Virus record (IMG/VR): IMGVR_UViG_3300009537_000402
Location: 1 to 12,004 of that record
Direction: 5' to 3' (one strand)
DNA: 12,004 nucleotides
Source: a virus
Shown here one piece after another: positions 1-12,004 of this stretch. The translations under genes were made by a program, and so were the position numbers. Numbering within the stretch: the first letter of the stretch is position 1; the number at the start of each line of letters is the position of its first letter. The notes under the pieces are model-generated. The model searched no databases. It saw only the letters and a program-made list of their open reading frames with translations, and was not told where the DNA came from.

Positions 1-99
1 CCGAGCGTAGCGTTGCATCGATGACAACGCTTTAAGCCCCGACCCTACGCAAAAGGGTCAAACCCCTGTGGTTTGAGGGGTGCTGAGACTATTTAGGGC
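1..99. repeat. Terminal direct repeat, copy 1. It is identical to 11906-12004 and is the signature of a circular or terminally redundant genome with an 11,905-bp unit length.
   Basis: Read directly: ccgagcgtagcgttgcatcgatgacaacgc...gctgagactatttagggc at 1-99 recurs base for base at 11906-12004. Confidence 0.95.
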
Positions 100-115
100 T
101 CTTTGAGGATGGATT
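96..115. repeat. Right arm of the perfect 20-bp inverted repeat (gggctctttgaggatggatt).
   Basis: It is the exact reverse complement of 11810-11829. Confidence 0.9.
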
Positions 116-142
116 TAATAGCACATAAAGAATTACAAGTAT

Positions 143-161
143 GAACGAGCTACGCTCGTTC
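143..161 (-). terminator. Perfect 8-bp hairpin with a 3-nt loop, downstream of the 61-aa ORF. Possible terminator or processing site, but not canonical.
   Basis: The sequence is gaacgagc-tac-gctcgttc. On the minus strand it is followed by atacttgtaattcttt, which is T-containing but not a clean U-tract. Its 3' half can alternatively pair with 2-11. Confidence 0.25.
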
Positions 162-204
162 AAGTAAAGTAAATATTTAAATGTTGCTATTAAATCTATT
201 AATA

Positions 205-390
205 TCACTCTGTTCGAGCCCTCAAATGTAACCAAGTATATTCCATAACTGGTGTTTTAGCTTTCTCTTGCTTACGCCTAAATAGCTTGATGGGCTTATT
301 TATTACTTCACTTTCTATCTTTTCAATGTTACTGAAGTTGTGAGATTCAATGTTTATTTCTATTTTTTTCCTATATAACTTCGGTTTCAT
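205..390 (-). CDS. Hypothetical basic 61-aa protein, the last gene before the structured island.
   Basis: ATG start at 390 forms an ATGA overlap with the stop of the upstream 113-aa ORF (tcat at 387-390). It is co-oriented with all other genes. No family was recognised. Confidence 0.55.
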   Translation of the reverse strand: MKPKLYRKKIEINIESHNFSNIEKIESEVINKPIKLFRRKQEKAKTPVMEYTWLHLRARTE

Positions 391-728
391 TGTATAGGTT
401 TCAAGCTACCTTTAACAACATTGGCGTAAGTACCTCTATCAGTTATATTATTGATAGTCATGAAGGAGCATTTCTTTCCGACTAGTACATCCGCAGGGTC
501 GATTTCTTTACCTACCTCTAACTTAGCACCGAAATCGACCAGAAGCAAACCTAGTTTACTATCTTGTGTTATGTTAGTCGGATAGCCATCTATTACTCTA
601 AGCCCTTCACCAAATTCAATAACAATATCAGTGTACTGGAAGGGCTGTTCTCTATATTTAACTTCAACAATGACTCCTTCATGTTTACCTTCTTCAATAA
701 TCCTAGTTTGTTCTATTTTTATTTTCAT
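387..728 (-). CDS. Hypothetical 113-aa protein, possibly an OB-fold DUF669-like phage protein (weak).
   Basis: ATGA overlap with the upstream wHTH gene (tcat at 725-728). The pattern G.HEGVIVEVK...SKLGLLLVDFGA...VLVGKKCSF resembles DUF669-type phage proteins from memory only. Confidence 0.6.
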   Translation of the reverse strand: MKIKIEQTRIIEEGKHEGVIVEVKYREQPFQYTDIVIEFGEGLRVIDGYPTNITQDSKLGLLLVDFGAKLEVGKEIDPADVLVGKKCSFMTINNITDRGTYANVVKGSLKPIQ

Positions 729-991
729 AGTTTCAATTCCTCTTTCATTTTTACTACTAATGATGATATAGTAGTCCTAGCTTTGTCTAATGGTGCTTTA
801 TTTGTTATTTCATAACTGACTTTTCTTTGACTCTCAATTCTTTTAAGCCAGCCTTTAGTTACCATACTAGCCAGAATTCTTAGTAGATAATTATAATCTA
901 TTTCTAGCTTGGCAGATATTTTGGTCGCATATTTATTTTCATTACTTACTTGACTAAGATAAGTAAGAATTCTTGCTTCTGACTTCTTCAT
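725..991 (-). CDS. Winged helix-turn-helix DNA-binding protein (ArsR/MarR/TrmB-like, 88 aa from the ATG at 991).
   Basis: The track ORF starts at a GTG (1003) that lies inside the Shine-Dalgarno site. ATG 991 is preceded by GGGGTGA plus 8 nt. The sequence EARILTYLSQ...YATKISAKLEIDYNYLLRILASMVTKGWLKR is a typical wHTH recognition-helix plus wing pattern. Confidence 0.7.
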   Translation of the reverse strand: MKKSEARILTYLSQVSNENKYATKISAKLEIDYNYLLRILASMVTKGWLKRIESQRKVSYEITNKAPLDKARTTISSLVVKMKEELKL

Positions 992-1214
992 TTGTTTAAT
1001 CACCCCATACTAGAGTAATACTTAACTAATATATTAATGTATCTAATATTCGTTTCATAACCTTTATAAACTAGGGGGTTTTTTATCAATTTATCTAGTT
1101 CTAGTGCTATTAAAAAGTTAATTTAATTAGTTAATTAGATGCAGTTATAATTTTGTTAATACTATATCATTAGTAGTATTTTTCTTTGAGCAAAAAAATT
1201 AAGCCAATTACGGC
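992..1214 (-). promoter_or_regulatory. AT-rich intergenic region upstream of the wHTH gene. It is the probable promoter or operator region and a possible origin.
   Basis: About 220 nt lack any ORF. The region holds AT palindromes (taatatatta; ttaatttaattagttaatta with gttaatt repeated). A minus-strand extended -10-like TGATATAGT lies at 1161-1169. No canonical -35/-10 pair with good spacing was found. Confidence 0.35.
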
Positions 1215-1217
1215 TCA
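1192..1217 (-). terminator. Candidate intrinsic terminator after the 55-aa ORF.
   Basis: The minus strand reads tgagcc-gtaatt-ggctta, a 6-bp stem including one G-U pair, followed by attttttt. The stem is short and overlaps the stop codon. Confidence 0.35.
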
Positions 1218-1382
1218 ATTTTTCTTTTCATTTCTGAAACAAGCAACGGTATGACCAAGTACCTTTACTCTAAGGTAATCTCGACCTTTTTTATCCTTTG
1301 CTTCCCAGATATCTACACCATTGCCTTTGTAAGTAGGTGCAGTACCTACGAATTCAGTTTCATTTATTTTAGTTTTTGCCAT
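1215..1382 (-). CDS. Hypothetical 55-aa protein, below the ORF-track length cutoff (MAKTKINETEFVGTAPTYKGNGVDIWEAKDKKGRDYLRVKVLGHTVACFRNEKKN).
   Basis: Translated by hand. ATG at 1382 is preceded by GGAG plus 10 nt, and the stop TGA is at 1217-1215. It is the only co-oriented ORF in the 1003-1552 gap. Confidence 0.5.
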   Translation of the reverse strand: MAKTKINETEFVGTAPTYKGNGVDIWEAKDKKGRDYLRVKVLGHTVACFRNEKKN

Positions 1383-1551: not shown

Positions 1552-2373
1552 TTAGAAGATAGTTTTCCAAGCGTCACCGATGTTAATTTGTGCTCCTTCT
1601 ACAGCTTTCCATGTGTCTCCTATGTTGATTTGCATCGCTTCTACGCTTTTCCAGGCATCACCTATATTTATTTGGCAATTTGTACCTTCAGAAAAAGGGT
1701 AAGCTAATCCATTTCCACTGTTATACAGGGAAGTAACTTCTGCAGCTGTTAGGGCTTTGTTCCAGATGCCAATTTCATCGATGTTTCCATCGTAAGCAGA
1801 GGAAGTACTGCTTATGGTATCTGCATAGGTAGTTCCAGAGCCCGAAACAAAAGAAGCATTTGTGAAGTCATTTGAGGCTGCATTAACATCAACAGTTCCG
1901 TTGATGTAAATAGAGATAGTGTCATTTGCGAAATCACAAACCCCTACAACATGAGTCCATGCACCAGCTTCGCTGATCGTGCCAGTTGTTGTTTCGCTTT
2001 GATATGAGCCCCCTGTGCCTGGGTTTGCAGCACATAGTACTGTGTCGCTGGAAGTAACATACATAGCAAAGGCAGTATGTCCAGCATCACTGAAGTAGGA
2101 ATTAAAGATAAAACGGGTATCAGCAGCAGAGTTTGTATAGACCCAAGCTGAGACTGATATTGCAGCTGCTCCGCTGAAGTTATCATTGATGTAGCCAGTT
2201 CCAAATGTGATGTGGTCGTCTGCACCGTCAAAGTCATAGGATGTGTTGATGTGGCCTGATTGGTTTTGGACTGCTCCTGATACTGTTCCGTTTTTTGTTC
2301 CAACAGCATCAACAGCATCGCCAGATGATTCGTCAAGTTTCCAATATCCAATACATCCATCAATTATTGCCAT
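1552..2373 (-). CDS. LamG / concanavalin-A-like lectin-domain protein (273 aa), a probable distal tail fiber or receptor-binding protein.
   Basis: The start is moved to ATG 2373, which is preceded by GAAGAGG plus 7 nt. The pattern GYWKLDESSGD...DFDGADDHITFG...FSGAAAISVSAWVY...IDEIGIWNKALTAAEV is the classic Laminin_G_3-type signature. The C-terminus carries three 14-aa repeats. Confidence 0.8.
   Translation of the reverse strand: MAIIDGCIGYWKLDESSGDAVDAVGTKNGTVSGAVQNQSGHINTSYDFDGADDHITFGTGYINDNFSGAAAISVSAWVYTNSAADTRFIFNSYFSDAGHTAFAMYVTSSDTVLCAANPGTGGSYQSETTTGTISEAGAWTHVVGVCDFANDTISIYINGTVDVNAASNDFTNASFVSGSGTTYADTISSTSSAYDGNIDEIGIWNKALTAAEVTSLYNSGNGLAYPFSEGTNCQINIGDAWKSVEAMQINIGDTWKAVEGAQINIGDAWKTIF
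1555..1674 (-). repeat. In-frame 42-nt tandem repeat, about 2.9 copies, encoding QINIGD(A/T)WK(S/A/T)VE.. at the C-terminus of the LamG protein.
   Basis: Trp codons (cca on the plus strand) occur at 1567, 1609 and 1651, exactly 42 nt apart. The copies differ mainly at synonymous positions (gtcaccgatgttaat, gtctcctatgttgat, atcacctatatttat). Confidence 0.85.
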
Positions 2374-2582
2374 ACATAAACCTCTTCTGTGCATGGTTTT
2401 GGGGGTTTTTCATCGTGATAGCAGGTGTGTTTGGTGTATTTGTAGGTTTTTCCTTCAATTTTTTTAGGAGAAAGTTTAGTTTTAGCTAAATCCAGGTTTC
2501 CATTTTTAATTTCTTCTCTGATATTGTGAGGTGCTATTTTTCCAGGCTCTTTGTCTTCTAGGGCTTCAAGATAGATTTTCAT
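2364..2582 (-). CDS. Hypothetical 72-aa protein between the two fiber genes.
   Basis: TAATG overlap with the tail fiber stop at 2582. The C-terminus has HTCYHDEKPPKPC, a possible small metal-binding knuckle (speculative). Confidence 0.55.
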   Translation of the reverse strand: MKIYLEALEDKEPGKIAPHNIREEIKNGNLDLAKTKLSPKKIEGKTYKYTKHTCYHDEKPPKPCTEEVYVWQ

Positions 2583-3175
2583 TATGCTGTGTATTGGATG
2601 TATATTGTTCCGATTGGGAAGTTAGAAGCTGTGGGTGGTGTTGCATCAGTGTTGTAAAGTACTTGTGCAGTGTATTGAGTGTCGGCCGAGCTATTATCCC
2701 CTGTTAAAGTTAAGCCTACGCCTGTGTCTGAGGCATCATTTTTGAGAAAAGCGTCATCGACATTGAGGGTGTTGGTGGATAAAGTGCAGTTTGTACCTGC
2801 AACTAAGGCTGTTTTAGACATATCAATAGCTGCACTGGCATTTATATCAGCATTTACAATAACTCCAGAGCCGATAGCAACAACACCAGCATTAGACATG
2901 GTGGCATCACCACTTAAGGCATATTCTATGGGTGCTGAGGATGCGTTTCCTATCCATATTTTACCATCAGCTAGGGTTGTATCTCCAGTATTGTCATCAA
3001 CATATTTTTTAGTGGCAATTTCATAATCAGTGGTAGGTGTTACTCTCACTCTACCACGCGAGTGATCTCCAGAGTGATTAGGAAGGATTAAGCCAGTTCC
3101 TACTGGTGTGGCTTTAATTGGCTCCATCTTGGAGCTTACTTGTTTGATTAATCTTGATTCTTTTGTTCTTGCCAT
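2582..3175 (-). CDS. Tail fiber protein (197 aa).
   Basis: The N-terminal region has the EIATKKYVDD motif common in phage tail fiber N-termini. It is followed by Gly/Ser/Thr/Asn-rich beta-type sequence (GDATMSNAGVVAIGSGVIVNADINASAAIDMSKTAL). The start is a TAATG overlap at 3175. Confidence 0.75.
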   Translation of the reverse strand: MARTKESRLIKQVSSKMEPIKATPVGTGLILPNHSGDHSRGRVRVTPTTDYEIATKKYVDDNTGDTTLADGKIWIGNASSAPIEYALSGDATMSNAGVVAIGSGVIVNADINASAAIDMSKTALVAGTNCTLSTNTLNVDDAFLKNDASDTGVGLTLTGDNSSADTQYTAQVLYNTDATPPTASNFPIGTIYIQYTA

Positions 3176-3330
3176 TATTCAAACCCCGCCTTCTTGCGTC
3201 TAGCGACAAGAGAGCCATTTTCAGCAATTAAATTGAGTTTTCTGCCAGTTTGTTTGGTAGTTCTAGCAGTAAGTCCAGATGTAACTGGGTAATCAGTTTT
3301 AACTTCTGCTTGGTTATGAGTATCTGGCAT
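3175..3330 (-). CDS. Hypothetical 51-aa protein, below the track cutoff (MPDTHNQAEVKTDYPVTSGLTARTTKQTGRKLNLIAENGSLVARRKKAGFE).
   Basis: Translated by hand. Its stop overlaps the fiber start as TAATG at 3175, and it fills an otherwise empty co-oriented gap. There is no Shine-Dalgarno site. Confidence 0.45.
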   Translation of the reverse strand: MPDTHNQAEVKTDYPVTSGLTARTTKQTGRKLNLIAENGSLVARRKKAGFE

Positions 3331-3362: not shown

Positions 3363-3545
3363 TTATGTTGATACTGAGCCATTAAGGATGCCCTGGTCGA
3401 TTAGCTGTCTGATAACTTCGCCTAGAACATCAGCAATTTCAGCATCGGCTGCGGCGTTGCAGTCCATAGCTAAATCTTGTGTGTGATTAGTTACTGAGAA
3501 AGCTGGTGCGTGGATGTTATTATTATCCCTTAGATTTCTTGGCAT
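3363..3545 (-). CDS. Hypothetical 60-aa protein.
   Basis: The start is moved from 3593 to ATG 3545, which is preceded by AAGAGGT plus 5 nt. This cuts the overlap with the upstream ORF from 71 nt to 23 nt. Confidence 0.55.
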   Translation of the reverse strand: MPRNLRDNNNIHAPAFSVTNHTQDLAMDCNAAADAEIADVLGEVIRQLIDQGILNGSVST

Positions 3546-3750
3546 CTTTAACCTCTTTTTTTGGCTGGGAAGGTTTGCTACCTTCAAGTTCATTTCGGAT
3601 AGCAGAGTCGATAAATTTTTTACCAGTTAGAATATGATTTTTCATCATATCATAGTTTTTTTGAGACTGTTCTTTAGCGTGGTCTGTCTCAGCATTTTCT
3701 ATGTTATGTTTATAAGCTTTAAGAAGTGCAGCACAATTATCTATTGTCAT
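3523..3750 (-). CDS. Hypothetical helical, Lys-rich 75-aa protein downstream of the capsid gene.
   Basis: ATGA overlap with the capsid gene stop (tcat at 3747-3750). Confidence 0.55.
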   Translation of the reverse strand: MTIDNCAALLKAYKHNIENAETDHAKEQSQKNYDMMKNHILTGKKFIDSAIRNELEGSKPSQPKKEVKDAKKSKG

Positions 3751-4634
3751 GTAATTGTATCGGTGATTACATGAACAGCTTTAGGGTCTGTTAGTAAACA
3801 CTCGCCCTCTTCCCAGACTCTAATTGTTTTTCCGATGCCCGGGTCATCAACGATAGCTGTGGTTAAACCTGTAAACTGCTTCCATGTTGCAGCTCTTTTA
3901 GGTACAAACATGATAACAGTATCGGTTGTCATATTGACACTAACTACAATTTTACAGCCTAGTAATTCCATGACTACTCCGGATTTAACTTTATCGCTGG
4001 AGAATTGAGGAATACTTGAGCCTTTAACATCGATTAAGTAGTTTAAAAGGTGTTTGTGTTCAGCTGGGTGCATATAAATAATACATCCTTCTGGGTCATA
4101 TCTGTTAGTTCGGATTTGTTCTTTTCCGTTTAAGATATCAGTGATAGGATTACCGGTTACTGTGTCGTCCCAGCCATCTTGGGTAGCGGCAGCGGTGTTT
4201 ACATTACCGCCTGTACCTAGAGTGTCGCCTAGAACTGTTAAAATTCTTTGATCGACTTGATTTGATACAGCTAAAACTAAGTCTCTGACATTAGTAGCTA
4301 GGATATCTGGGTCTGTGTCTTTGATATCTTCAATAGTAATTAGAGGAGATGCAACAAAGAATTTTTTAACATAGCTAGTCTGCCGAGTCCATGACTGCTC
4401 GGCTACGACCGGCAATGCTTTAAACGAGGTATTTAAAATTTGTGATGCAGTGATAGCAGTAGTATCAGTAGAATCAATAAACCCTGCAGTTTTTTGATAC
4501 CATCGGATTTCTCTAGCATTTGTTTTGGCTACTGTTACAAATCTTTTGAGCATTAACGCTTCATCAGCAAAGCCTTTGGCTAGTTTGTCTATGTTAATTC
4601 CTCTTATATCCGCTTGTGCGCTTGAGTCTGCCAT
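3747..4634 (-). CDS. Major capsid protein (295 aa, presumed HK97 fold).
   Basis: The size and position (scaffold-like, decoration-like, then this ORF) are typical. It is a long uninterrupted ORF with a TAATG-coupled start. The fold is assumed and was not verified. Confidence 0.7.
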   Translation of the reverse strand: MADSSAQADIRGINIDKLAKGFADEALMLKRFVTVAKTNAREIRWYQKTAGFIDSTDTTAITASQILNTSFKALPVVAEQSWTRQTSYVKKFFVASPLITIEDIKDTDPDILATNVRDLVLAVSNQVDQRILTVLGDTLGTGGNVNTAAATQDGWDDTVTGNPITDILNGKEQIRTNRYDPEGCIIYMHPAEHKHLLNYLIDVKGSSIPQFSSDKVKSGVVMELLGCKIVVSVNMTTDTVIMFVPKRAATWKQFTGLTTAIVDDPGIGKTIRVWEEGECLLTDPKAVHVITDTIT

Positions 4635-5047
4635 TATGCTAAGTTAACATTAAAAGGTGCTAATTTGAATAGGAAGCTTTCTGTGTCGGCTGCTGTTTCT
4701 AAAGCCATGCCTACGATTGCTTCAGAGTTTACATCTGCAACTACTAACTCGTTGGCTGCTCCTGTTGCTGTATCTGTGATAATTGCTAGTCCAGCTGTAA
4801 CTCCAGCTGCTCCAGCAAATCCTCTGAAGATGCCTTCCATATAAACTGCTATTTTGGTTTTACCATCGTTAGCGATTTTTTCTTCTGCAGCAATACCAAT
4901 GATTTCATCAGTATCTCCAGTAGTGACCGCAACAGTAGCCGGGTCAGTTAAAATAAGAATTGAGCCTTTTTCGATGGTTGCACCATCAGCACAAGTAAAC
5001 GGTACTGGTACGCCAGTTTCGTAAATTAGGGTTGCTTCGAGTGCCAT
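4634..5047 (-). CDS. DUF2190-like head decoration or capsid-associated protein (137 aa).
   Basis: It is Gly/Ala/Thr-rich (GIAAEE...GFAGAAGVTAGLAIITDTATG) and lies immediately upstream of the capsid gene, as in many DUF2190-family decoration proteins. Confidence 0.5.
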   Translation of the reverse strand: MALEATLIYETGVPVPFTCADGATIEKGSILILTDPATVAVTTGDTDEIIGIAAEEKIANDGKTKIAVYMEGIFRGFAGAAGVTAGLAIITDTATGAANELVVADVNSEAIVGMALETAADTESFLFKLAPFNVNLA

Positions 5048-5068
5048 GGGGGTAGGAAGGATATTGTT

Positions 5069-5710: not shown

Positions 5711-7086
5711 TATAATAACCCGAAGTTTAAGCTAGATGGTGCTCTATTTTCGTAATATTTTTCATTTTGTTTTTTTAAATCATTGTAGTATTTTTCAGCT
5801 TCTTTTCTTTTTTCATCCAGGAGAGCCTGGTTTCTTTTTCTGATATTTTCGTAATATTGTTCAGCTTCTATTCTTTCATCGCTTCTTTTCTTTCTTCGTT
5901 CTTTTTCAATACGATCGTAATAGGCTTCTAGTTCTTCTCTCCTTCTGGCTTCTCTTTCGTCTAGAAGTCTAAGTCGTTCGGCAAATCGAGCATCATCTTC
6001 ATTAAGTCGTCTCTGTCTAGCTTCTTCGTATTCTTGGGTTTTTCTGGCATCTTCTTCTTCTCTTTTTTTTCTTCTTTCTTCATATTCTAAATCAGCTGGG
6101 GAAGGCTGTCCCGCCCTGGCCACAGTACCTTTGATTAGTTCTCTGTCTTGTTTCCAGTTATCCCAAACTTGTAGAGGGAAATTTACGATGGGTATGAGAG
6201 CCCTGGCTATCCTTCCAGCACTTGTTAATTCATCGTGCATTTCTTCTAATCTTTTTAGTTGTTCGATATCTCCGTTTCTTTCAGCATCACTTGCTCTGAA
6301 TACTAAATCTGATGATGCGTCATCAAGAATATTAAAAGTGAGTTTTGTTTCAAAAGCGTATGCGGCTAAAGCACCAGCTACCCATAATTGTCCTTTAGAA
6401 ATTTTATTTAGTAAATTTTTTATGAGTCCAGATTTTTTAGTATTCATTTTAGCTCCAGCAGTGGTTTGACCAGAAGCGGCTTTGATTACATCTGGAGCGT
6501 CATCAATAAATTTAGCAGCGTATTTTCCAACCATTCTTTCTAATCCTTCTCTAGCTGATTTTGCTGCTGCTGTTTTAGCTACTCCCTTAACAGCACCCTT
6601 CACTACTGTACCTCCAACTAGGCCAGAAGCTAATTCTGCTGGGGATTGAGGTTGGTCTGTACCTAAAAATTTTCTAACTGGTGCGAATTGGTCTGATACC
6701 TGTTGGAGTGTGTCTCCAACTCCTCTGCCAACATCTTTTATTGTTTCTTTAGCTCTGGTGATAAAAGTTTGACCAGTCTGTTCGAAATCTCCTACAGCAC
6801 CGCCCCCGCCTACAGCTGGAGTCTCAACACCAAAATCTCTTGCCCTTCTCGATACGCCTCCCCCGCCTACGCTACCAGGAGAAATAGGTCTCGCTTCTCT
6901 GCCAGCTATTGGTGAAGGACTTTTGAATCTATCTTTTGATGTGACTGCAGCTTTGCCTACTTTTTTAGCAATACCTTTAATATTTTCAGTTAATTGTTTT
7001 GTAACTGGTTTGGGCGTTTTTCCCTTTCTGGTGAAAGCTTTTTTTACTCTTTTGAAAGCTTTTTTGATTCTATCTCTAAATCCCAT
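5710..7086 (-). CDS. Large 458-aa virion-associated protein candidate. It occupies the position of a minor head or internal protein directly after the portal gene.
   Basis: Shine-Dalgarno GAGGT plus 9 nt, with a TAATG overlap with the portal stop. The N-terminus is basic. Two VGGGG motifs are encoded by a repeated cccccgcctac string. A hydrophobic segment LWVAGALAAYAF follows. The C-terminal 110 aa or so are Arg/Glu/Lys-rich with a recurring E..YY..I.K motif. Confidence 0.6.
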   Translation of the reverse strand: MGFRDRIKKAFKRVKKAFTRKGKTPKPVTKQLTENIKGIAKKVGKAAVTSKDRFKSPSPIAGREARPISPGSVGGGGVSRRARDFGVETPAVGGGGAVGDFEQTGQTFITRAKETIKDVGRGVGDTLQQVSDQFAPVRKFLGTDQPQSPAELASGLVGGTVVKGAVKGVAKTAAAKSAREGLERMVGKYAAKFIDDAPDVIKAASGQTTAGAKMNTKKSGLIKNLLNKISKGQLWVAGALAAYAFETKLTFNILDDASSDLVFRASDAERNGDIEQLKRLEEMHDELTSAGRIARALIPIVNFPLQVWDNWKQDRELIKGTVARAGQPSPADLEYEERRKKREEEDARKTQEYEEARQRRLNEDDARFAERLRLLDEREARRREELEAYYDRIEKERRKKRSDERIEAEQYYENIRKRNQALLDEKRKEAEKYYNDLKKQNEKYYENRAPSSLNFGLL

Positions 7087-8216
7087 TATGTTTTGACCTC
7101 GTTAGGAGTAGGTTGTTGTGGTGGTGTAGCTTCCTGGTTTTCTACTGATGTATCTTCTGGAGTATTAGCTTGTTGAGTTTCGCTTTTTGATGAATCCGAG
7201 AGGAGCTCGTTTTGTAAACTTGCTGGGAATTCCAGCTCTATCTCTAAATCCAGCTGAATTAAGACTTGTTCTTCTAAAAATAATTGTTCTTCTTCGATAG
7301 TTTGTTCGAAAGCTAAGTAAGCTATTTTAGCAGAAGCCTCAGTAATCTCTTGAGACCCCCCGACGATGATTTGAGGTACGCCAGTAGCCTGGAAGAAATA
7401 CTGATTAAGCTGTTGAATCCAAGGTAAAGGGTTAAGCATCGAGTTAGTAGGGACAGCTGAAAGCTCAGTTTCAACAGTTCCCATTGGGACATAGATATTT
7501 TCGCCCTGCGTGTAAGCTCTATCTGCTTTAGCCTTAAACGCAGCGATTTTGGTTGTGTCATCTGTATCTAAGTGCCAGATTCTAACTGGATAAACATTAC
7601 GATGAAGTAGCTTTTTGTAATCAGCCATAGCTTCATTACGCATGAGGATGATATCCTCAACAGCTTTGACCATACTTACGCCATGTATTTCATCAGCTAC
7701 TCTGTTTCTGGCTAAGTGGAAAATATCTTCTGGCTCAAATCTGGCATTAACCATACCTTTTGGTTTATTAAGTTGTTCGTAACGGATGATTACTCCTTTT
7801 TTATTGGCTACGATTCTGATGAGTTCGGGATCTAAAGGCTTTAGATTTACAAGTCTGCCTTTTTTATCTCTAATAATTTCGCAATATGAATCCCCGCCTA
7901 TGTGATATGTTCGTACACAATTTTCCAGGATAGTGTTAAAAGTGTCTTTACCCCATCCTTTAATTTCATCTAAGACAATTTGAGTGATTTCATTACTCTG
8001 AAATCCTTTGCCGATAGTCCAGGTAGCTTTAGCATCAATAGCAGCGGCTAATTCTGGAATAGCTTTGTAGAAGCCAAACCATTTAGACCAGTCGGTATTA
8101 TCATAATAAGTTTCAACATCTTCAGCACCATCAGTAGTTTCTACCTGTGGTGCATATAAATCTTCAGTACCTTCGAGGTTACTAATATCAACATTTGCTA
8201 TATCTGTATCTGGCAT
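7086..8216 (-). CDS. Portal protein (376 aa).
   Basis: Sequence is Phage_portal-like: IGGDSYCEIIRDKKGRLVNLKPLDPELI, NRVADEIHGVSMVKAVEDIILMRNEAMADYKKLL, PQIIVGG...ASAKIAYLAFEQTIEEEQ, plus an acidic C-terminal tail. Shine-Dalgarno is AAGAGGGA plus 8 nt. Confidence 0.85.
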   Translation of the reverse strand: MPDTDIANVDISNLEGTEDLYAPQVETTDGAEDVETYYDNTDWSKWFGFYKAIPELAAAIDAKATWTIGKGFQSNEITQIVLDEIKGWGKDTFNTILENCVRTYHIGGDSYCEIIRDKKGRLVNLKPLDPELIRIVANKKGVIIRYEQLNKPKGMVNARFEPEDIFHLARNRVADEIHGVSMVKAVEDIILMRNEAMADYKKLLHRNVYPVRIWHLDTDDTTKIAAFKAKADRAYTQGENIYVPMGTVETELSAVPTNSMLNPLPWIQQLNQYFFQATGVPQIIVGGSQEITEASAKIAYLAFEQTIEEEQLFLEEQVLIQLDLEIELEFPASLQNELLSDSSKSETQQANTPEDTSVENQEATPPQQPTPNEVKT

Positions 8217-8491
8217 TATATTATTCCCTCTTTTTCCCAGTCCTCAAATATTTTTTCAAATCCTAGGTTATTATCTTTGCTGTGTTGTTTCATTGAAAGT
8301 ATTTTGTCTGGTTTAGCATCATCTTCGATGATTTCTTTAAAATGATTTTCGAATTTATCTACAGCTATTCTGATGGTGTTTTTTTGACCATGTTCGTCCG
8401 TCCATTGTTTTAGGGTAATCTGGTCTATACCTTCTAGTTTGTCTTTTATCTTTACTCCTAGTTTTGTTGTTATCCAGTCTTTAGCTTTCAT
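8216..8491 (-). CDS. Hypothetical 91-aa protein.
   Basis: The track start at 8512 is a TTG. ATG 8491 gives an ATGA overlap with the upstream stop (tcat at 8488-8491). Its own stop overlaps the portal start as TAATG. Confidence 0.55.
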   Translation of the reverse strand: MKAKDWITTKLGVKIKDKLEGIDQITLKQWTDEHGQKNTIRIAVDKFENHFKEIIEDDAKPDKILSMKQHSKDNNLGFEKIFEDWEKEGII

Positions 8492-8766
8492 ACGACTATC
8501 CCACAATAACAAAGTGTTTGTGTAGATGCTACATTATTGAGCATGATTAAATAATTTGTGTTAGTTACGAAGAGTTTAACAGCGCCAAACTTTTGGCTGT
8601 CGTTGATGTAAGCCGTAAGAGTGCCGTTATAGAGACCATAATTGATTGTTGCCCAGTTACTCGTTCCACAATGAGTAATAATCCATTGAACGCCCGATGC
8701 CGGCTGAACAGCCCAGCTACTATTTGCGGTGATAGATGATAATCCGTTTACTATTGTAAATGCCAT
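8488..8766 (-). CDS. Hypothetical beta-rich 92-aa protein (alternative start at ATG 8784).
   Basis: ATG 8766 forms a TAATG overlap with the hand-found 54-aa ORF upstream. Neither candidate start has a Shine-Dalgarno site. Confidence 0.5.
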   Translation of the reverse strand: MAFTIVNGLSSITANSSWAVQPASGVQWIITHCGTSNWATINYGLYNGTLTAYINDSQKFGAVKLFVTNTNYLIMLNNVASTQTLCYCGIVV

Positions 8767-8930
8767 TATAATATGAGTGCCCATTTCTTAATGGAATCTT
8801 CACTAAGAACGGTTATTATGTTTCCTTCTTCATCTTCAATTTTAGCAAAGCCACTGCTAGTGACACCTAAACCCTGGTTTTCAGAGTTAGGGAATATGTT
8901 TGATTTGAGTAAGCCGAATTCTAATACCAT
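8766..8930 (-). CDS. Hypothetical 54-aa protein, below the track cutoff (MVLEFGLLKSNIFPNSENQGLGVTSSGFAKIEDEEGNIITVLSEDSIKKWALIL).
   Basis: Translated by hand. The ATG lies 1 nt after the nuclease stop codon, and the stop forms a TAATG overlap with the next ORF. Confidence 0.45.
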   Translation of the reverse strand: MVLEFGLLKSNIFPNSENQGLGVTSSGFAKIEDEEGNIITVLSEDSIKKWALIL

Positions 8931-8931
8931 T

Positions 8932-9384
8932 TTATTCAATTTTAGGCAATATCCAGTCTATATCTGGAATTACGCCTTCAAGTCTTTTGTTCCAGAATTT
9001 AGCGTATCCTGAATTTGCCATTTCTTCACCTATATCATTACCAGCTAGGATTATATTTCCTAGTAGTCTGCCCCATTTTTCTACTCTATTGAATTTATTG
9101 ATTTTAATGGTTACTTTTTTATTGAGAATCATTTTTTCTAAAGCACTCTGAGATTTCTTTCCCCCTTTTTCAGACATCTCTGGAGCGGCGATATTTGAGA
9201 ATCGTACAGGGAAATCAAATTCTCGATGCTGCCATCTGACCGTAATTGTATCGCCATCATGCACTTTAACGACTTTAGCTTGAAAGTCCTCAAAAATTTG
9301 CTTATGGGGACTACTGAAGTAATAGAAATTCATCTGCGCGTTGGTGAGTTCTGGGAATCTGTCGAAATCGTGTCCATTTGTCAT
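8932..9384 (-). CDS. Staphylococcal nuclease (thermonuclease/SNase) homolog (150 aa).
   Basis: It aligns by eye to S. aureus nuclease: VHDGDTITV (the D19/D21 region), VRFSNIAAPE (R35...E43) and KWGRLLGNI (R87). Ala replaces the metal ligand Asp40. Confidence 0.8.
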   Translation of the reverse strand: MTNGHDFDRFPELTNAQMNFYYFSSPHKQIFEDFQAKVVKVHDGDTITVRWQHREFDFPVRFSNIAAPEMSEKGGKKSQSALEKMILNKKVTIKINKFNRVEKWGRLLGNIILAGNDIGEEMANSGYAKFWNKRLEGVIPDIDWILPKIE

Positions 9385-9749
9385 TATGATTCATTGATAA
9401 AATCGACTGCTTTTTTGTCTCTCAGTAAAGCTAGGGCTCTTAATCCAGCATCTCTGAGAACATTAATCATATCTTCACCTTCAATTCTGGAAGTGTAGCC
9501 AGACAAATCATAGATAATGACATAAATGGCAGCGAAGTTTGAAGCGGCTTCTTTGAGAAGTCCTTTGGTGTCTGCGTTTAGGGAAGCGTAATTATCGCTG
9601 AAATTGTATCTGCAAGTGACATTAATCATAGATTCCACTTGAGTCATAAAATCGTTGATGTATGCTTCGACATTAGAAGTGCTACTAGCATTAGCTCCAG
9701 TTTTTCTCTGCACTTCTGCAGTTGTTGCGAATATTCCAGTATCAGCCAT
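9384..9749 (-). CDS. Hypothetical 121-aa protein, with weak resemblance to gp6-like head-tail connector proteins.
   Basis: ATG at 9749, and its stop overlaps the nuclease start as TAATG. The helical pattern (AYINDFMTQVESMIN...AASNFAAIYVIIYD) is only suggestive. Confidence 0.5.
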   Translation of the reverse strand: MADTGIFATTAEVQRKTGANASSTSNVEAYINDFMTQVESMINVTCRYNFSDNYASLNADTKGLLKEAASNFAAIYVIIYDLSGYTSRIEGEDMINVLRDAGLRALALLRDKKAVDFINES

Positions 9750-9814: not shown

Positions 9815-10348
9815 TCATAAAACTTTAGGTAGGATATTTACTAATTTATTAGTGGGAGGAATGCCGTCGTCGTTAGCATCACATCCTAACTTTACCTCCA
9901 ATATTGTGCCTTTCAGTCCTTTAGGGATATCAAGACCTATTCCAATTAATGCAGATGGGAATCTTGCACCATCTCCGTCTAATCCTTCGTATGATACTCT
10001 TCTATCTGGAATAAATATCCATGAGCAATTAGGCAATATTTCTTTCTGCCACAAGGATGTTTCAAGATTATCACATCTATAAATCGCTACTCCTTTCTTA
10101 ATTACCTTAAAGAAATGTCTGAACATTACATACGCCTTTGAAAATGGGGGATTCATCCATGCAACCTTATCCATATCACTGATATCTTGAAAATCTTCTT
10201 CTGAAAACGTTTCCGTCTTAGTATTTTCTTTCGTGGCACAGCAGTCAAATTCAAAATTATACTGTTCCATCAAAGGATCAAATACCCATGATGGAGTTTC
10301 CCATTCATCCCTTGAAGGATTGTTACCTTTTCCGTTGTTTGCTTTCAA
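9815..10348 (-). CDS. Phage Dam-family DNA N6-adenine methyltransferase (177 aa, TTG start).
   Basis: Motifs seen are EWETPSWVF, FDCCAT and the catalytic NPPFS, then CDNLETSLW. The codon at 10348-10346 is TTG, preceded by AGAGGT plus 8 nt. Confidence 0.75.
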   Translation of the reverse strand: MKANNGKGNNPSRDEWETPSWVFDPLMEQYNFEFDCCATKENTKTETFSEEDFQDISDMDKVAWMNPPFSKAYVMFRHFFKVIKKGVAIYRCDNLETSLWQKEILPNCSWIFIPDRRVSYEGLDGDGARFPSALIGIGLDIPKGLKGTILEVKLGCDANDDGIPPTNKLVNILPKVL

Positions 10349-10367
10349 TCTTATCTACCTCTGGAAA

Positions 10368-10388
10368 CCGCACACTTTAGTGTGTCGG
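10368..10388 (-). promoter_or_regulatory. Hairpin between the terminase and methyltransferase genes, a possible attenuator or mRNA stabiliser.
   Basis: The minus strand reads ccgACACAC-taaa-GTGTGcgg, 8 bp with one bulge, followed only by tttcc. The Shine-Dalgarno site of the methyltransferase lies just downstream. Confidence 0.3.
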
Positions 10389-10406
10389 AGGATGTCATTT
10401 TTTTTA

Positions 10407-11702
10407 CTAATGGATGTAAATATTTAAATTTTTGCTTCCTATGAGCCAAGCTGCTCTTATTAATGCTTCTGTGATGTGGGAGTCGTTTCCCATGTATTTT
10501 ACTTTTGCGTTGATTATTTCAAATTGTATGGAGCGTAAAGAGTGAAAAATATCATCTCTTTTGAGCAGCTTGATCCTTCCCCACTCCATCATGGCTAAGA
10601 GGTTGTTATACATATCTTCTTTTAGTAAGCGTTTTTTCTGTTTTCCATCTCTGGTGAGGCTTCGGCTGGCGTTGTTTAAGGCGATGGTTTTTCTTCTGGT
10701 TTCATCAGCTTTGAGAAGGTAATCAAAGTCTCCACTACCTAGCCCCCCATCATCAATGCCTATTTTTCTGAAAGAGTAGATTCTTTCTAATTTGGTGGTG
10801 TAATTGACTCTTTCTGGTGTTGTGAGTTTATTTGATACTTTGTAAGCGTTCATGGTTATATTTTTGCTGTCTGTACCATCTAAAACAGCCCAGACTGTAC
10901 TATCTCGACCCATCCCTGCTACATCTATGCCTAGGAAATAGTCTCTCCTGGGCCGGATATTAGGTGAATCTTCAATGATAAGTACTTTTTCAAGTAGTTT
11001 GTCGGGGAATACTTGTTTTAGGTCTTGGAGTGGTTGTCCCATGTATTCTTGAGCATAGGCTAGAGCAGTCATCCTGGATTTTTCAGCTTGTAGTCTTTCT
11101 AGGGCTCTATCTCGTTGATGTTCTGTCCAGGTTTCGCATATTTCTCTTTCTCTGACGACCTTTTCGGAATCTGTACGAAATCTGGTGTAAGAATTAAAGG
11201 CATTGCCTTTATTGATAAGAACATCATAAAAAAACCCCTCAGTCCCGAAAGGTGTAGAAAGAAGTATTGTGTCCCCGCCTGTGGTTAATAGCATAGGGGT
11301 GACTGCATCCCAGACGGGCTCGGGAATCCGAGAGGCTTCATCAGCGTATAATCTGTGTACGGTTAAAAATCTTATGCCTAAACCACTGAGTCCTGTTGGC
11401 AGACACCATATAATCGTGCCATTTTTGAGCGTGATTTTGGATTTTGTGGGGCGAAATTTGCCTTTTCTGATGATGGTTTTATCTTTTCTGAGGATATAAT
11501 CAAGTGTTTTTTCAAATAGAGCGTACGCCTGGCGCTCAGTCGGAGCGATCATAAGTACGACTTTCTTAGGGTTGTTGATAGCATATTCCCCAGCATCTAT
11601 GCCACAAACTACTGATTTACCTACTTGCCTGCCAGTACAAAGGTGTTTATCACCTTTAGTAGATAAAAAAGCTTTTTGCCAGGGGTCTAGTTTTATTTCC
11701 AT
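10407..11702 (-). CDS. terL: Terminase large subunit (431 aa from ATG 11702).
   Basis: Walker A is GRQVGKS and Walker B-like is LYADEA. Nuclease-domain acidic motifs are GIDVAGMGRDS and IGIDDGGLG. The track start at 11747 is a GTG whose 15 extra codons run into the GC-rich island. MEIKLDPWQKAF is a typical TerL N-terminus. No Shine-Dalgarno site precedes 11702. Confidence 0.85.
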   Translation of the reverse strand: MEIKLDPWQKAFLSTKGDKHLCTGRQVGKSVVCGIDAGEYAINNPKKVVLMIAPTERQAYALFEKTLDYILRKDKTIIRKGKFRPTKSKITLKNGTIIWCLPTGLSGLGIRFLTVHRLYADEASRIPEPVWDAVTPMLLTTGGDTILLSTPFGTEGFFYDVLINKGNAFNSYTRFRTDSEKVVREREICETWTEHQRDRALERLQAEKSRMTALAYAQEYMGQPLQDLKQVFPDKLLEKVLIIEDSPNIRPRRDYFLGIDVAGMGRDSTVWAVLDGTDSKNITMNAYKVSNKLTTPERVNYTTKLERIYSFRKIGIDDGGLGSGDFDYLLKADETRRKTIALNNASRSLTRDGKQKKRLLKEDMYNNLLAMMEWGRIKLLKRDDIFHSLRSIQFEIINAKVKYMGNDSHITEALIRAAWLIGSKNLNIYIH

Positions 11703-11809
11703 TATATAAAAAATTTGTCTGCCGCATCCTGGGATACACGCATCCACATCCCTTCAAACTCGCTACCCACATACATACAACATTAAGCTCGAGCATCCCA
11801 GCCTCTGGG

Positions 11810-11829
11810 AATCCATCCTCAAAGAGCCC
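11810..11829. repeat. Left arm of a perfect 20-bp inverted repeat (aatccatcctcaaagagccc).
   Basis: It is the exact reverse complement of 96-115. The arms are 171 nt apart on the circular map (11830-11905 plus 1-95). Confidence 0.9.
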
Positions 11830-11905
11830 CGCGGTACGCGGGCGACCGAAGGGAGCCCGCCTATTATTCGTCTCAGCATGAGGGCTGGGCTCTTTCTAGA
11901 CCTGC

Positions 11906-12004
11906 CCGAGCGTAGCGTTGCATCGATGACAACGCTTTAAGCCCCGACCCTACGCAAAAGGGTCAAACCCCTGTGGTTTGAGGGGTGCTGAGACTATTTA
12001 GGGC
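11906..12004. repeat. Terminal direct repeat, copy 2 (identical to 1-99).
   Basis: Same 99-nt string as 1-99. The window ends exactly where the copy ends, as expected for a fixed-length assembly overlap. Confidence 0.95.

What the first reader, a model, noticed from the sequence alone, without database searches (positions are those of the whole stretch)
1..12004. Complete 11.9-kb head-plus-fiber genome with no recognisable replication, lysis, tail-tube, integrase or small-terminase genes
After the small gaps are filled, about 24 co-oriented ORFs cover the circle. Recognisable functions are terL, portal, capsid, decoration, scaffold-like, two fiber proteins, a methyltransferase, a nuclease and a wHTH protein. 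I see no DNA polymerase, primase, helicase, Rep or initiator. I also see no integrase, prohead protease, tail tube, sheath or tape measure, and no peptidoglycan hydrolase, although the Shine-Dalgarno usage and a YvrJ-like peptide suggest a Gram-positive host. That places it at the very low end of tailed-phage genome sizes. It could be a minimal podovirus-like phage relying on host replication. It could instead be a capsid-forming satellite that borrows tail, lysis or replication functions from a helper. The missing functions may also lie in the unassigned small ORFs and the 458-aa protein.
Basis: inference. Interest (0 to 1): 0.75.

Follow-up and report, generated by a model that had tools for sequence, protein, structure and literature searches.

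The report
Miniature 12-kb head-and-fibre virus genome
This is a complete 11.9-kb genome from a large, globally spread and undescribed family of tiny capsid-forming viruses. They encode a head, a DNA-packaging motor and receptor fibres, but no recognisable genes for copying DNA, integrating, building a tail tube or breaking the cell wall.

Summary
The window is an 11,905-bp unit with a 99-nt assembly overlap. It carries 24 co-oriented genes at 92% coding density. TerL, portal, an HK97-fold capsid protein, a cement protein, a Dam methylase, an SNase nuclease, a wHTH protein, a LamG fibre and a YvrJ/holin-like peptide are confirmed.

It is not a mis-circularised fragment. The capsid protein has 1,804 homologue clusters, and their contigs stop at about 13 kb. 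At least 17 relatives assemble as circles of 10.3-12.6 kb. The only longer contigs (21.4 and 24.2 kb) are tandem concatemers. No copy is integrated.

The universal core is TerL, a probable adaptor, portal, scaffold, cement, capsid, a small protein and a fibre. Pfam and PHROG scans of 86 accessory proteins from 29 relatives found only fibre/structural proteins and methylases.

Most likely (about 0.5) this is an autonomous miniature virus with a predicted T=3 head. It would use the host replisome and leave the cell with a small membrane protein. A helper-dependent satellite (about 0.25) is not excluded.

The Gram-positive host inference is weak. A GC-rich hairpin region upstream of terL is a candidate pac/ori site.

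The parts
1..99 (.). Terminal overlap, identical to 11906-12004. It marks a circular or terminally redundant 11,905-bp unit.
   Evidence: Relatives show the same kind of k-mer-sized overlaps of 99-141 nt.
10407..11747 (-). Large terminase, 446 aa from the GTG start. An alternative ATG start lies at 11703.
   Evidence: Terminase_6N 1.3e-11 and phrog_2 1.5e-34. The best cultured match is Halogranum tailed virus 1 at 28% identity. Present in 29 of 29 large relatives.
9815..10348 (-). Dam-type N6-adenine DNA methyltransferase. It is an accessory gene.
   Evidence: PF05869 2.5e-12 and phrog_111 2e-19. It is absent from relatives, although other methylases recur in the family.
9384..9749 (-). Conserved 121-aa all-helical protein, a probable head-to-tail adaptor.
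   Evidence: Present in 26 of 29 relatives and represented by 626 clusters at 50% identity. The AF2 model has pLDDT 87.5. The top BFVD match is an unnamed viral protein (E 6e-5, TM 0.78). Weaker matches are annotated head-to-tail adaptor, head-tail connector or Mu gp36. Nothing in the PDB was significant.
8932..9384 (-). Staphylococcal-nuclease-fold nuclease.
   Evidence: PF00565 3.7e-9 and phrog_452 1e-16. Present in 16 of 29 relatives.
8216..8939 (-). Variable cassette between the nuclease and the portal, with three orphan ORFs of 57, 98 and 98 aa.
   Evidence: No homologue in relatives. Relatives carry unrelated genes in this slot. Most have a roughly 210-aa protein that hhalign does not link to these ORFs. 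One has a NosD beta-helix protein. The 98-aa ORF at 8216-8512 gives only weak DnaD (0.046) and YffB (0.23) hints.
7086..8216 (-). Portal protein.
   Evidence: PF04860 3.9e-12 and phrog_9232 2e-19. Present in 29 of 29 relatives.
5710..7086 (-). 458-aa protein. It has a basic, disordered N-terminus, a Gly/Ala-rich hydrophobic segment, a charged coiled-coil C-terminal half and a conserved extreme C-terminus (PSxLxFGLL). It is inferred to be an internal or ejected virion protein.
   Evidence: Alignment of 13 family members. The only database hit is a weak tape-measure PHROG at 3e-3. The PDB profile search found nothing. About half of relatives have a homologue. Others have an unrelated 300-500-aa protein in this position, several of which end in GLL. 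L084 has none.
5573..5710 (-). 45-aa single-pass membrane peptide, YvrJ family, a holin-like candidate.
   Evidence: PF12841 2.2e-11 and phrog_4898 'holin' 3.5e-10. In 13 of 27 relatives, a protein of 90 aa or less between portal and cement passes a strict hydrophobicity cut-off. About 18 pass a looser one.
5260..5568 (-). 102-aa acidic coiled-coil protein with a conserved C-terminus (EYAKRIMxG). It is inferred to be the scaffold.
   Evidence: Present in 23 of 29 relatives. The C-termini are listed. It has no database hit.
5069..5260 (-). Conserved 63-aa protein of unknown role in the head module.
   Evidence: Present in 20 of 29 relatives.
4634..5047 (-). Cement (decoration) protein.
   Evidence: PF09956 3e-4, below the curated cut-off. 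Present in 28 of 29 relatives. Its homologues are marked Phage_cement_2.
3747..4634 (-). HK97-fold major capsid protein, 295 aa.
   Evidence: phrog_1650 8e-14. The AF2 model has pLDDT 80.8. Foldseek against the PDB puts encapsulins and the HK97 prohead on top, down to 2e-14. There are 1,804 homologue clusters.
3363..3750 (-). Two small ORFs of 75 and 76 aa downstream of the capsid gene, function unknown.
   Evidence: The 76-aa ORF is found in 15 loci, the 75-aa ORF in 4.
3175..3330 (-). Conserved 51-aa protein that always precedes the fibre gene.
   Evidence: Found in 60 loci and 24 of 29 large relatives. Gene order is shown.
2582..3175 (-). Fibre protein with a conserved N-terminus and a variable C-terminus.
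   Evidence: Only the N-terminal part is conserved. In relatives the protein ranges from 160 to 604 aa. Accessory proteins of relatives match tail-fibre, tail-spike, BppL_N and PD40 families.
1552..2394 (-). LamG/concanavalin-type receptor-binding protein. It ends in three QINIGDxWK repeats.
   Evidence: Laminin_G_3 4.7e-20. The repeats are visible in the translation.
205..1382 (-). Variable 'early-like' module: a 55-aa ORF, a 92-aa TrmB/MarR-type wHTH protein, a 113-aa beta-rich protein and a 61-aa ORF.
   Evidence: wHTH: TrmB 5.8e-6. The 113-aa protein is shared with L007, L014, L032 and L095. In each of these it lies directly upstream of the structured non-coding region.
1..204 (-). First half of the GC-rich structured non-coding region between the last small ORF and terL.
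   Evidence: A perfect 20-nt inverted repeat (96-115 with 11810-11829) closes a 212-nt multi-hairpin domain. That domain has MFE -111.5 kcal/mol and z = -9.7. Rfam has no match.
11748..12004 (-). Second half of the same structured region, directly upstream of terL. It is a candidate pac and/or ori site.
   Evidence: The closest relative, L095, shares parts of it. Similar stem-closed domains or tandem C-tract/G-tract hairpins lie upstream of terL in many relatives.
1004..1214 (-). AT-rich intergenic region with short inverted repeats, a likely promoter/operator region ahead of the wHTH gene.
   Evidence: No sigma-70 consensus promoter stands out.

Best explanation
The window is the complete genome of one member of a very large, uncultivated, globally distributed family of miniature HK97-type viruses of 10.3-12.7 kb.

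Shown: it encodes everything needed to build and fill a small head, namely capsid protein, cement, portal and large terminase. It also encodes host-recognition fibres with swappable tips. About 5 kb is a fast-changing set of small accessory genes such as methylases, nucleases and DNA-binding proteins.

Inferred mechanism:
1. Scaffold-assisted assembly builds a small head. T=3 is predicted from genome length.
2. The terminase fills the head without a recognisable small subunit. It may start at the GC-rich hairpin region just upstream of terL.
3. The portal is closed by the 121-aa adaptor, which carries the 51-aa protein and the fibres. There is no tail tube.
4. After adsorption, an internal protein is expelled through the portal to carry DNA across the envelope. 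This is the 458-aa protein, which is tape-measure-like in composition and carries a conserved C-terminal docking motif.
5. Replication is done entirely by the host replisome. Small variable DNA-binding proteins recruit it to the structured region.
6. Release relies on a small membrane protein without a wall hydrolase. That would be enough in a host lacking a murein wall.

The host is unknown. An archaeal or ultra-small-cell host is as plausible as a bacterial one.
For: Completeness and stable size:
- The 99-nt overlap.
- At least 17 circular relatives of 10.3-12.6 kb.
- No relative contig above 13 kb among the 80 listed of 148 IMG/VR relatives, the 80 listed of 427 metagenome relatives, or the top 120 protein hits. 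The only exceptions are two tandem concatemers with units of 11,831 and about 11,585 bp.
- The same architecture persists down to 37-46% capsid identity.

Self-sufficiency of the particle:
- Universal core of TerL, adaptor, portal, scaffold, cement, MCP, 51-aa protein and fibre.
- Fibres have a conserved N-terminus with LamG, PD40, BppL_N, tail-spike or NosD tips. This means the element sets its own host range.

Free-living lifestyle:
- No integrase and no integrated copy. A scan of 185,579 species genomes gave only six stand-alone contigs of 12 kb or less.
- No match in plasmid or GenBank phage collections.
- Recurrent in Tara Oceans marine metagenomes.
- Great diversity: 1,804 MCP clusters at 90% identity and 626 adaptor clusters at 50%.

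Size and fold:
- The published model predicts a mean of 11.8 kb for T=3 heads (PMC7762592).
- The MCP model is a compact HK97 fold closest to T=1-4 encapsulins and the HK97 prohead.

Cis element and membrane protein:
- Structured region with z = -9.7, with analogues and tandem hairpin repeats upstream of terL in relatives.
- A small membrane protein in the head module of most relatives.
Against: - Every known autonomous tailed phage of this size (phi29-like phages, astrithr, Mycoplasma P1) carries its own protein-primed polymerase, according to the review abstract seen and my own knowledge. Nothing of the kind is present here.
- No nozzle, knob or tube protein was recognised.
- The adaptor assignment rests on one unnamed BFVD hit and on weak annotated hits.
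- The roles given to the 458-aa protein, the scaffold and the hairpin region are inferences. The 458-aa family is also missing from some relatives.
- No wall hydrolase was found, which is awkward if the host is a walled bacterium.
- Among small HK97 elements, a satellite lifestyle is common (preprint 10.1101/2025.06.18.659913).
- Sensitive structure-based searches were possible for only two proteins.
Confidence: 0.5

Rival explanations
1. It is a capsid-forming satellite. The element makes its own small heads, packages itself and supplies its own fibres. It borrows a tail, lysis functions and possibly replication functions from a larger helper virus co-infecting the same cell.
For: No tail tube, nozzle, lysin or replication gene was recognised in this genome or in 29 relatives. 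It does encode a probable head-to-tail adaptor, which tail-stealing islands also keep. Small HK97 elements of 11-18 kb are often satellites.
Against: There is no integrase and no integrated copy in genome, metagenome or viral collections, nor in plasmids. Known satellites (P4, PICI, cf-PICI, PLE) live in host chromosomes or as plasmids. The element carries diversifying receptor-binding fibres of its own. It has no recognisable helper-sensing or helper-interference genes. A stable size and gene order at 37% capsid identity point to an old, self-sustaining lineage.
Confidence: 0.25
2. It is an autonomous virus whose replication, lysis and tail functions are encoded after all. They would be carried by proteins too divergent for profile searches: the 458-aa protein, the 113-aa protein, the wHTH protein and the orphan cassette.
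For: About half the ORFs have no assignment. There are weak DnaD-like hints for the 98-aa ORF and the wHTH protein and a weak tape-measure hint for the 458-aa protein. The 113-aa protein always sits next to the structured region. Some relatives carry what looks by eye like an Hjc-type resolvase or ribbon-helix-helix proteins just upstream of terL.
Against: None of the candidate proteins is universal in the family, so no single hidden replicase or lysin can serve all members. No ORF outside the structural core is large enough for a polymerase or a primase-helicase. All the hints have E-values of 0.003 or worse, and they contradict each other (DnaD versus YffB).
Confidence: 0.15
3. It is an assembly artefact, a fragment of a larger phage or prophage that was falsely circularised.
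For: A 99-nt end overlap on its own can arise from a repeat.
Against: Many independent assemblies from different samples and assemblers close at 10.3-12.6 kb with the same gene order. Two longer contigs are head-to-tail repeats of the same unit. No relative extends into other genes.
Confidence: 0.01

Closest known systems
Smallest isolated tailed phages: Salmonella phage astrithr (11.6 kb), Mycoplasma virus P1 (11.7 kb) and phi29-like podoviruses
   Same: Genome size at the lower limit for tailed viruses, with a predicted T=3-class head. Both have HK97-type capsid, portal and packaging ATPase genes and no tail tube or tape measure.
   Different: Those phages replicate with their own protein-primed family-B polymerase and terminal protein. 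They also encode a tail knob or collar and lysins. phi29-like phages use a packaging RNA as well. None of these was found here. There is no protein similarity: tblastn of the MCP against 50,697 phage records found no match at E<=1e-3 and nothing better than E=0.3.
Capsid-forming phage-inducible chromosomal islands (cf-PICI)
   Same: An element of roughly 10-15 kb that encodes its own small HK97 capsid, portal, large terminase and head-to-tail adaptor but no tail.
   Different: cf-PICIs are integrated chromosomal islands with an integrase, AlpA and primase-replicase genes, and they carry no fibres. This family has no integrase, no integrated copy and no Rep, and it does carry fibres.
Encapsulin nanocompartments
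   Same: The capsid protein model is closest in the PDB to encapsulin shells: P. furiosus 2e0z at 2e-14, M. xanthus EncA T=3 and Q. thermotolerans T=4. The 458-aa protein carries a conserved extreme C-terminal motif, which recalls cargo-loading peptides.
   Different: Encapsulins have no portal, terminase or fibres, and they package proteins rather than DNA. All three of those genes are present here.
Haloarchaeal tailed viruses (HGTV-1, HRTV-27) and Thermus/Meiothermus phages
   Same: They give the best cultured matches for TerL (28% identity over 62% of the protein) and are among the few matches for the portal.
   Different: Those genomes are 33-144 kb with full tails and replication genes. 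The similarity is limited to the packaging proteins.
Metagenomic 'missing small tailed phages' and 'twilight-zone' HK97 genomes (Luque and co-workers)
   Same: The same general class: complete HK97-encoding contigs at or below the size of the smallest isolates, with predicted T<=3 heads.
   Different: Those studies survey size classes. The group they highlight lacks portal and tail genes and encodes RepA. I found no description of this portal-plus-terminase-plus-fibre family in the searchable literature.

Membership tests
Duplodnaviria / Caudoviricetes-type viruses | HK97-fold major capsid protein | tested here: met
   phrog_1650 8e-14. The AF2 model with pLDDT 80.8 matches HK97 and encapsulin shells at E down to 2e-14.
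Duplodnaviria / Caudoviricetes-type viruses | Portal protein and large terminase (ATPase plus nuclease) | tested here: met
   PF04860 and phrog_9232; Terminase_6N and phrog_2. The Terminase_6C match is weak.
Duplodnaviria / Caudoviricetes-type viruses | A tail (tube, nozzle or knob) attached to the portal | tested here: inconclusive
   Only a probable adaptor and fibres were found. No tube, sheath, nozzle or tape-measure family was found beyond one 3e-3 PHROG hit.
phi29-like / smallest podoviruses | Protein-primed family-B DNA polymerase and terminal protein | tested here: not met
   No polymerase family hit in the window or in 86 accessory proteins of relatives.
phi29-like / smallest podoviruses | Packaging RNA (pRNA) | tested here: not met
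   The Rfam scan at E<=1 found no pRNA. A structured region does exist upstream of terL, but it matches no known family.
cf-PICI and other phage satellites (P4, PICI, PLE) | Residence in the host chromosome (or as a plasmid), with an integrase | tested here: not met
   No integrase. All relatives in genome bins are stand-alone contigs of 12 kb or less. No plasmid match.
cf-PICI and other phage satellites (P4, PICI, PLE) | Dependence on a helper phage for tails, lysis or induction | not testable with these tools
   This needs co-occurrence data or an experiment. The lack of tail and lysin genes is compatible with dependence, and the element's own fibres argue against it.
cf-PICI and other phage satellites (P4, PICI, PLE) | Own replication module (primase-replicase) and AlpA-type regulator | tested here: not met
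   Nothing was found in the window or in relatives.
Gene transfer agents | Chromosomal gene cluster with tail genes whose particles package random host DNA | tested here: not met
   The element is a free circular unit that recurs as its own contig. It has no flanking host genes and no tail genes.
Encapsulins | HK97-fold shell without portal or terminase, loaded with cargo through a C-terminal peptide | tested here: not met
   Portal and terminase are present. The shell-fold similarity is met. The conserved C-terminus of the 458-aa protein is only suggestive.
YvrJ / PHROG 4898 'holin' | Short single-pass membrane peptide matching the family profile above its cut-off | tested here: met
   PF12841 scored 43.6 bits against a cut-off of 29.5, and phrog_4898 gave 3.5e-10. 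Holin activity itself was not tested.

The most novel reading that the evidence does not exclude
These are autonomous and essentially tail-less T=3 HK97 viruses, the 'missing' smallest architecture of the tailed-virus realm. They may infect archaea or ultra-small prokaryotes. On this reading they carry no replication genes at all. They deliver DNA by expelling an internal protein that is loaded into the head through an encapsulin-like C-terminal docking peptide. They use a tandem C-tract/G-tract hairpin region as a combined packaging and replication signal in place of a small terminase.
Probability: 0.2. Interest if true: 0.85.

Novelty: new variant of a known kind. Interest (0 to 1): 0.62.

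Why it matters
The lower size limit of the HK97/tailed-virus realm is an open question. So is whether a portal-bearing dsDNA virus can exist with no tail tube and no replication genes. This genome belongs to a family that is abundant, ancient, fixed at about 12 kb and present in oceans, sediments and groundwater. It is a concrete and tractable candidate for the predicted but never isolated T=3 head.

If the family is autonomous, its eight or so universal genes define a minimal gene set for a packaging virus. Its capsid protein's closeness to encapsulins bears on how viruses and cellular nanocompartments are related. If it is a satellite, it would be a new, non-integrating class that brings its own receptor fibres. 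In either case the family is missing from cultured-phage and plasmid databases, and I found no description of it in the searchable literature.

Tried and rejected
- **Homologue search with the 458-aa protein.** It returned only the query itself, because low-complexity words filled the candidate list.
- **Single search with ten orphan ORFs concatenated.** It returned nothing.
- **Profile searches against PDB sequences.** Searches for the adaptor, the 210-aa cassette protein and the 458-aa family found nothing useful. The same was true of single-sequence searches for the 98-aa, 113-aa and 197-aa proteins.
- **Foldseek of the adaptor model against the PDB.** Nothing was significant. A P74-26 neck chain appeared at E = 2.8.
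- **hhalign of the common 210-aa cassette protein against the window's 98-aa ORFs and another relative's 136-aa ORF.** No relationship was found.
- **Exact-pattern scan of IMG/VR for the hairpin shared with L095.** It gave 29 unrelated phage contigs and no family member.
- **Other negative scans.** Rfam, tRNA, and sigma-70 promoters and intrinsic terminators, which were not above shuffled expectation.
- **Look-up of the window's own contig by its capsid protein.** It is not on record.
- **Host inference.** Shine-Dalgarno use and genome bins were inconclusive. The bins mix Thaumarchaeota, Nanoarchaeia, Pacearchaeota, Levyibacteriota, Anaerolineales and Bacteroides.
- **Literature searches.** Seven searches found no description of this family.
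- **Readings rejected.** I rejected a phi29-like packaging RNA as the reading of the structured region. There is no Rfam match, and in relatives the region consists of tandem hairpin repeats, which look like protein-binding DNA sites. I also rejected a prophage fragment, a gene transfer agent and an encapsulin operon.

Full report
**1. What is in the window**

Bases 1-99 repeat exactly at 11906-12004, so the unique unit is 11,905 bp. Twenty-four ORFs, all on the minus strand, cover 92% of it. G+C is 39% overall. It rises to about 46% in the non-coding stretch around the junction.

- Large terminase: Terminase_6N 1.3e-11, phrog_2 1.5e-34.
- Portal: PF04860 3.9e-12, phrog_9232 2e-19.
- Major capsid protein: phrog_1650 8e-14. 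The Pfam Phage_capsid_4 match is below its cut-off.
- Cement protein: PF09956 3e-4, also below its cut-off.
- Dam methylase: 2.5e-12.
- Staphylococcal-type nuclease: 3.7e-9.
- TrmB/MarR-type winged-helix protein: 5.8e-6.
- LamG-domain protein: 4.7e-20.
- A 45-aa YvrJ peptide: 2.2e-11. PHROGs files this family as a holin (3.5e-10).

The 'scaffold-like' 102-aa protein and the 197-aa 'fibre' have no database hit. Their labels rest on composition, position and conservation in relatives. No tRNA and no Rfam family is present.

**2. What is absent**

At E<=0.1, Pfam, PHROGs and NCBIfam give no polymerase, primase, helicase, Rep or initiator. They also give no integrase, prohead protease, tube, sheath or wall hydrolase.

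The only hints are weak. The 458-aa protein matches a tape-measure PHROG at 3e-3. DnaD-type matches appear at 0.046 for the 98-aa ORF at 8216-8512 and at 0.027 for the wHTH protein. The same 98-aa ORF equally resembles YffB/ArsC at 0.23, so I leave it unassigned.

**3. It is a complete genome of a large family, not a fragment**

The capsid protein has 1,804 homologue clusters at 90% identity. The 120 best are 64-78% identical, and their longest contigs pile up at 11-12.1 kb. IMG/VR holds 148 relatives, and JGI metagenomes hold 427.

At least 17 relatives end in k-mer-sized overlaps of 28-141 nt. Their units measure 10.3-12.6 kb.

Only two contigs are longer. One of 21,422 bp is 1.8 tandem copies of an 11,831-bp unit, which was also assembled as a circle from another sample. 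One of 24,212 bp is two copies offset by about 11,585 bp.

A scan of one genome for each of 185,579 species found six relatives, all stand-alone contigs of 12 kb or less. They sit in bins named Thaumarchaeota, Nanoarchaeia, Pacearchaeota, Levyibacteriota, Anaerolineales and Bacteroides. The capsid protein has no match at E<=1e-3 in 50,697 GenBank phage records and none at E<=0.01 in 72,556 plasmids. One genotype recurs in many Tara Oceans assemblies.

**4. Family anatomy**

The gene order is conserved:
- terL
- the 121-aa protein
- often the nuclease
- a variable cassette
- portal
- a 300-500-aa protein
- a small membrane protein
- scaffold
- a roughly 60-aa protein
- cement
- capsid
- small ORFs
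- a roughly 50-aa protein
- a fibre and/or LamG protein
- 3-4 kb of small variable ORFs
- a non-coding region, then back to terL

The order persists in a circular 11.6-kb relative at 46% capsid identity and in a groundwater relative at 37%.

Universal genes are TerL, the 121-aa protein, portal, scaffold, cement, capsid, the roughly 50-aa protein and the fibre N-terminus. Six of the window's genes (Dam, g57, g98a, g98b, g72, g61) have no counterpart in relatives.

I scanned 86 accessory proteins of 100 aa or more from 29 relatives. Pfam gave only LamG, sialidase-N, PD40/WD40, BppL_N, a zinc finger, a C5 methylase and CcdA. PHROGs gave only tail, fibre, spike and virion proteins and methylases. 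The lack of replication, integration and lysin genes is therefore a property of the whole family, not a gap in this one annotation.

**5. Individual proteins**

*The 121-aa protein.* It has 626 representative clusters at 50% identity. Its AF2 model has pLDDT 87.5 and is a helical bundle.
- PDB searches gave nothing significant.
- In BFVD the top hit is an unnamed viral protein (E 6e-5, TM 0.78). Weaker hits include proteins annotated head-to-tail adaptor, head-tail connector and Mu gp36.
- Its N-terminal sequence pattern also resembles gp6-type adaptors, judged from memory.
- I call it a probable adaptor.

*The capsid protein.* The model has pLDDT 80.8 and a compact HK97 fold. Its best PDB matches are encapsulin shells (P. 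furiosus, M. xanthus EncA T=3, Q. thermotolerans) and the HK97 prohead.

*The 458-aa protein.* It has a basic disordered N-terminus, a Gly/Ala-rich hydrophobic segment, a charged repetitive C-terminal half and a conserved last motif, PSxLxFGLL.
- About half of relatives have a homologue.
- Others have an unrelated protein of similar size, and several of those also end in GLL.
- One distant relative has none.
- I infer a head-internal, ejected protein docked by its C-terminus. This is not shown.

*Small membrane proteins.* A protein of 41-87 aa with one or two hydrophobic segments lies between portal and cement in most relatives. The window's YvrJ peptide is one version.

*The adaptor-portal cassette.* It varies between relatives. 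Most carry a 210-aa protein unrelated to the window's ORFs, and one carries a NosD beta-helix protein.

**6. The non-coding region upstream of terL**

About 350 nt with no ORF lie between the last small ORF and terL. Within it, a perfect 20-nt inverted repeat (96-115 with 11810-11829) closes a 212-nt multi-hairpin domain. That domain has MFE -111.5 kcal/mol and z = -9.7 against shuffles.

The closest relative with this region, L095, shares pieces of it and has its own stem-closed domain (z = -6.8). L020 has a 19-bp-stem domain (z = -5.9).

In 12 of 42 family genomes the coding strand carries C-tract/C-tract/G-tract hairpins 0.1-2.9 kb upstream of terL, within 1.4 kb in 10 of the 12. They are often in 3-6 tandem copies spaced 46-51 nt apart. 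Tandem hairpins look like protein-binding DNA sites. Given their position and the missing small terminase, I read the region as a pac and/or ori element. This is an inference, and a stable RNA is not excluded.

The 113-aa protein sits directly upstream of this region in all five genomes that have it.

**7. Host**

- Most starts in the window are ATAATG-type overlaps.
- AGGAG precedes only 12% of 445 family gene starts.
- Sigma-70 promoters and intrinsic terminators are not enriched.
- Points for an archaeal or ultra-small-cell host: the best TerL match is a haloarchaeal virus, a haloarchaeal virus is among the few portal matches, the wHTH is TrmB-like, and three of six bins are archaeal.
- Points for a bacterial host: the YvrJ family and the Dam methylase.
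- Binning of small free contigs is unreliable.

The host is unresolved.

**8. How it most likely works**

*Shown.* The genome encodes a complete head-assembly and packaging set plus diversifying receptor-binding proteins. It exists as a free unit of about 12 kb and has no recognisable replication, integration, wall-hydrolase or tail-tube genes.

*Inferred.* A small head forms, with T=3 predicted because the published model gives a mean of 11.8 kb for that class. Packaging starts at the hairpin region. The adaptor and fibres close the portal without a tube. DNA delivery is helped by an ejected internal protein. Replication is by the host replisome. Exit uses a small membrane protein, which would be sufficient only in a host without a murein wall.

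I put 0.5 on this autonomous-virus reading and 0.25 on a helper-dependent satellite. I put 0.15 on 'the functions are there but too divergent to see' and about 0.01 on an artefact.
- Against a satellite: there are no integrated or plasmid copies, the element has its own fibres, and the lineage is old and diverse.
- For a satellite: every known autonomous tailed phage of this size brings its own polymerase, and small HK97 elements are often satellites.

**9. Comparison with known systems and novelty**

The element passes the hallmark test for the HK97/tailed-virus realm: capsid fold, portal and terminase. It fails the defining features of four other groups:
- phi29-like phages, because there is no polymerase and no pRNA;
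- cf-PICI and other satellites, because there is no integrase, island or Rep;
- gene transfer agents;
- encapsulins.

General surveys have noted complete HK97 contigs at or below 12 kb. I found no description of this portal-terminase-fibre family in seven literature searches. I rate it a new variant of a known kind, with interest 0.62.

**10. Limits**

Only two proteins could be modelled with alignments. Two protein-homologue searches were lost. No co-occurrence, spacer or read-level data were available.

Noticed in passing
window 1-204 and 11748-12004 (minus strand); also L095:8626-9190, L020:2800-3042, L088:1-456, L032:3439-3595, L087:174-292: There is a GC-rich, very stable non-coding domain upstream of terL. 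In the window a 20-bp stem closes a 212-nt domain with z = -9.7. In 12 of 42 relatives the same position holds tandem C-tract/C-tract/G-tract hairpins, always in the same orientation. Nothing in Rfam matches. It may be a pac/ori site or an RNA.
   Followed up: partly
window 5710-5735 (C-terminus of the 458-aa protein), with homologues in L018, L020, L024, L027, L045, L058 and L070: The extreme C-terminus is conserved (PSxLxFGLL), and unrelated proteins in the same slot also end in GLL. The capsid protein is structurally closest to encapsulins, so this recalls a cargo-loading or capsid-docking peptide. The 102-aa scaffold-like protein has its own conserved C-terminus (EYAKRIMxG).
   Followed up: partly
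window 1552-1680 (C-terminus of the LamG protein): There are three tandem copies of a 13-aa unit (QINIGDAWKSVEA, QINIGDTWKAVEG, QINIGDAWKTIF) at the very end of the receptor-binding protein.
   Followed up: no
L001:3674-4042, L035 and L042 (ORF immediately upstream of terL): An 83-122-aa protein carries the motif GSHSPIDVIAID...IQAK. By eye it looks like an archaeal-type Hjc or PD-(D/E)xK Holliday-junction resolvase. In other relatives ribbon-helix-helix-like proteins occupy this position. Pfam did not call either.
   Followed up: no
L128:1313-2296: One close relative carries a NosD right-handed beta-helix protein of the tail-spike or depolymerase type in the variable cassette between adaptor and portal. 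This suggests the cassette can hold virion-surface proteins.
   Followed up: no
L001/L093 (contig of 21,422 nt) and L151/L153 (contig of 24,212 nt): Two assemblies are head-to-tail concatemers of the roughly 11.6-11.8-kb unit. The copies in the second are 99.9% identical over 7.9 kb, apart from a roughly 600-nt stretch at 82%. This suggests concatemeric replication or packaging intermediates, or co-assembled strains.
   Followed up: partly
P0128, P0129, P0132, P0142 and about 20 others; L064 and L067: In many relatives the 121-aa adaptor domain is the C-terminal part of a 280-340-aa protein. The roughly 170-aa N-terminal extension has no Pfam match in most of them.
   Followed up: partly
window 387-728: The 113-aa beta-rich protein looks OB-fold-like by eye. 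It is found in only five family genomes, and in each it lies directly upstream of the structured non-coding region. It may bind that element.
   Followed up: no
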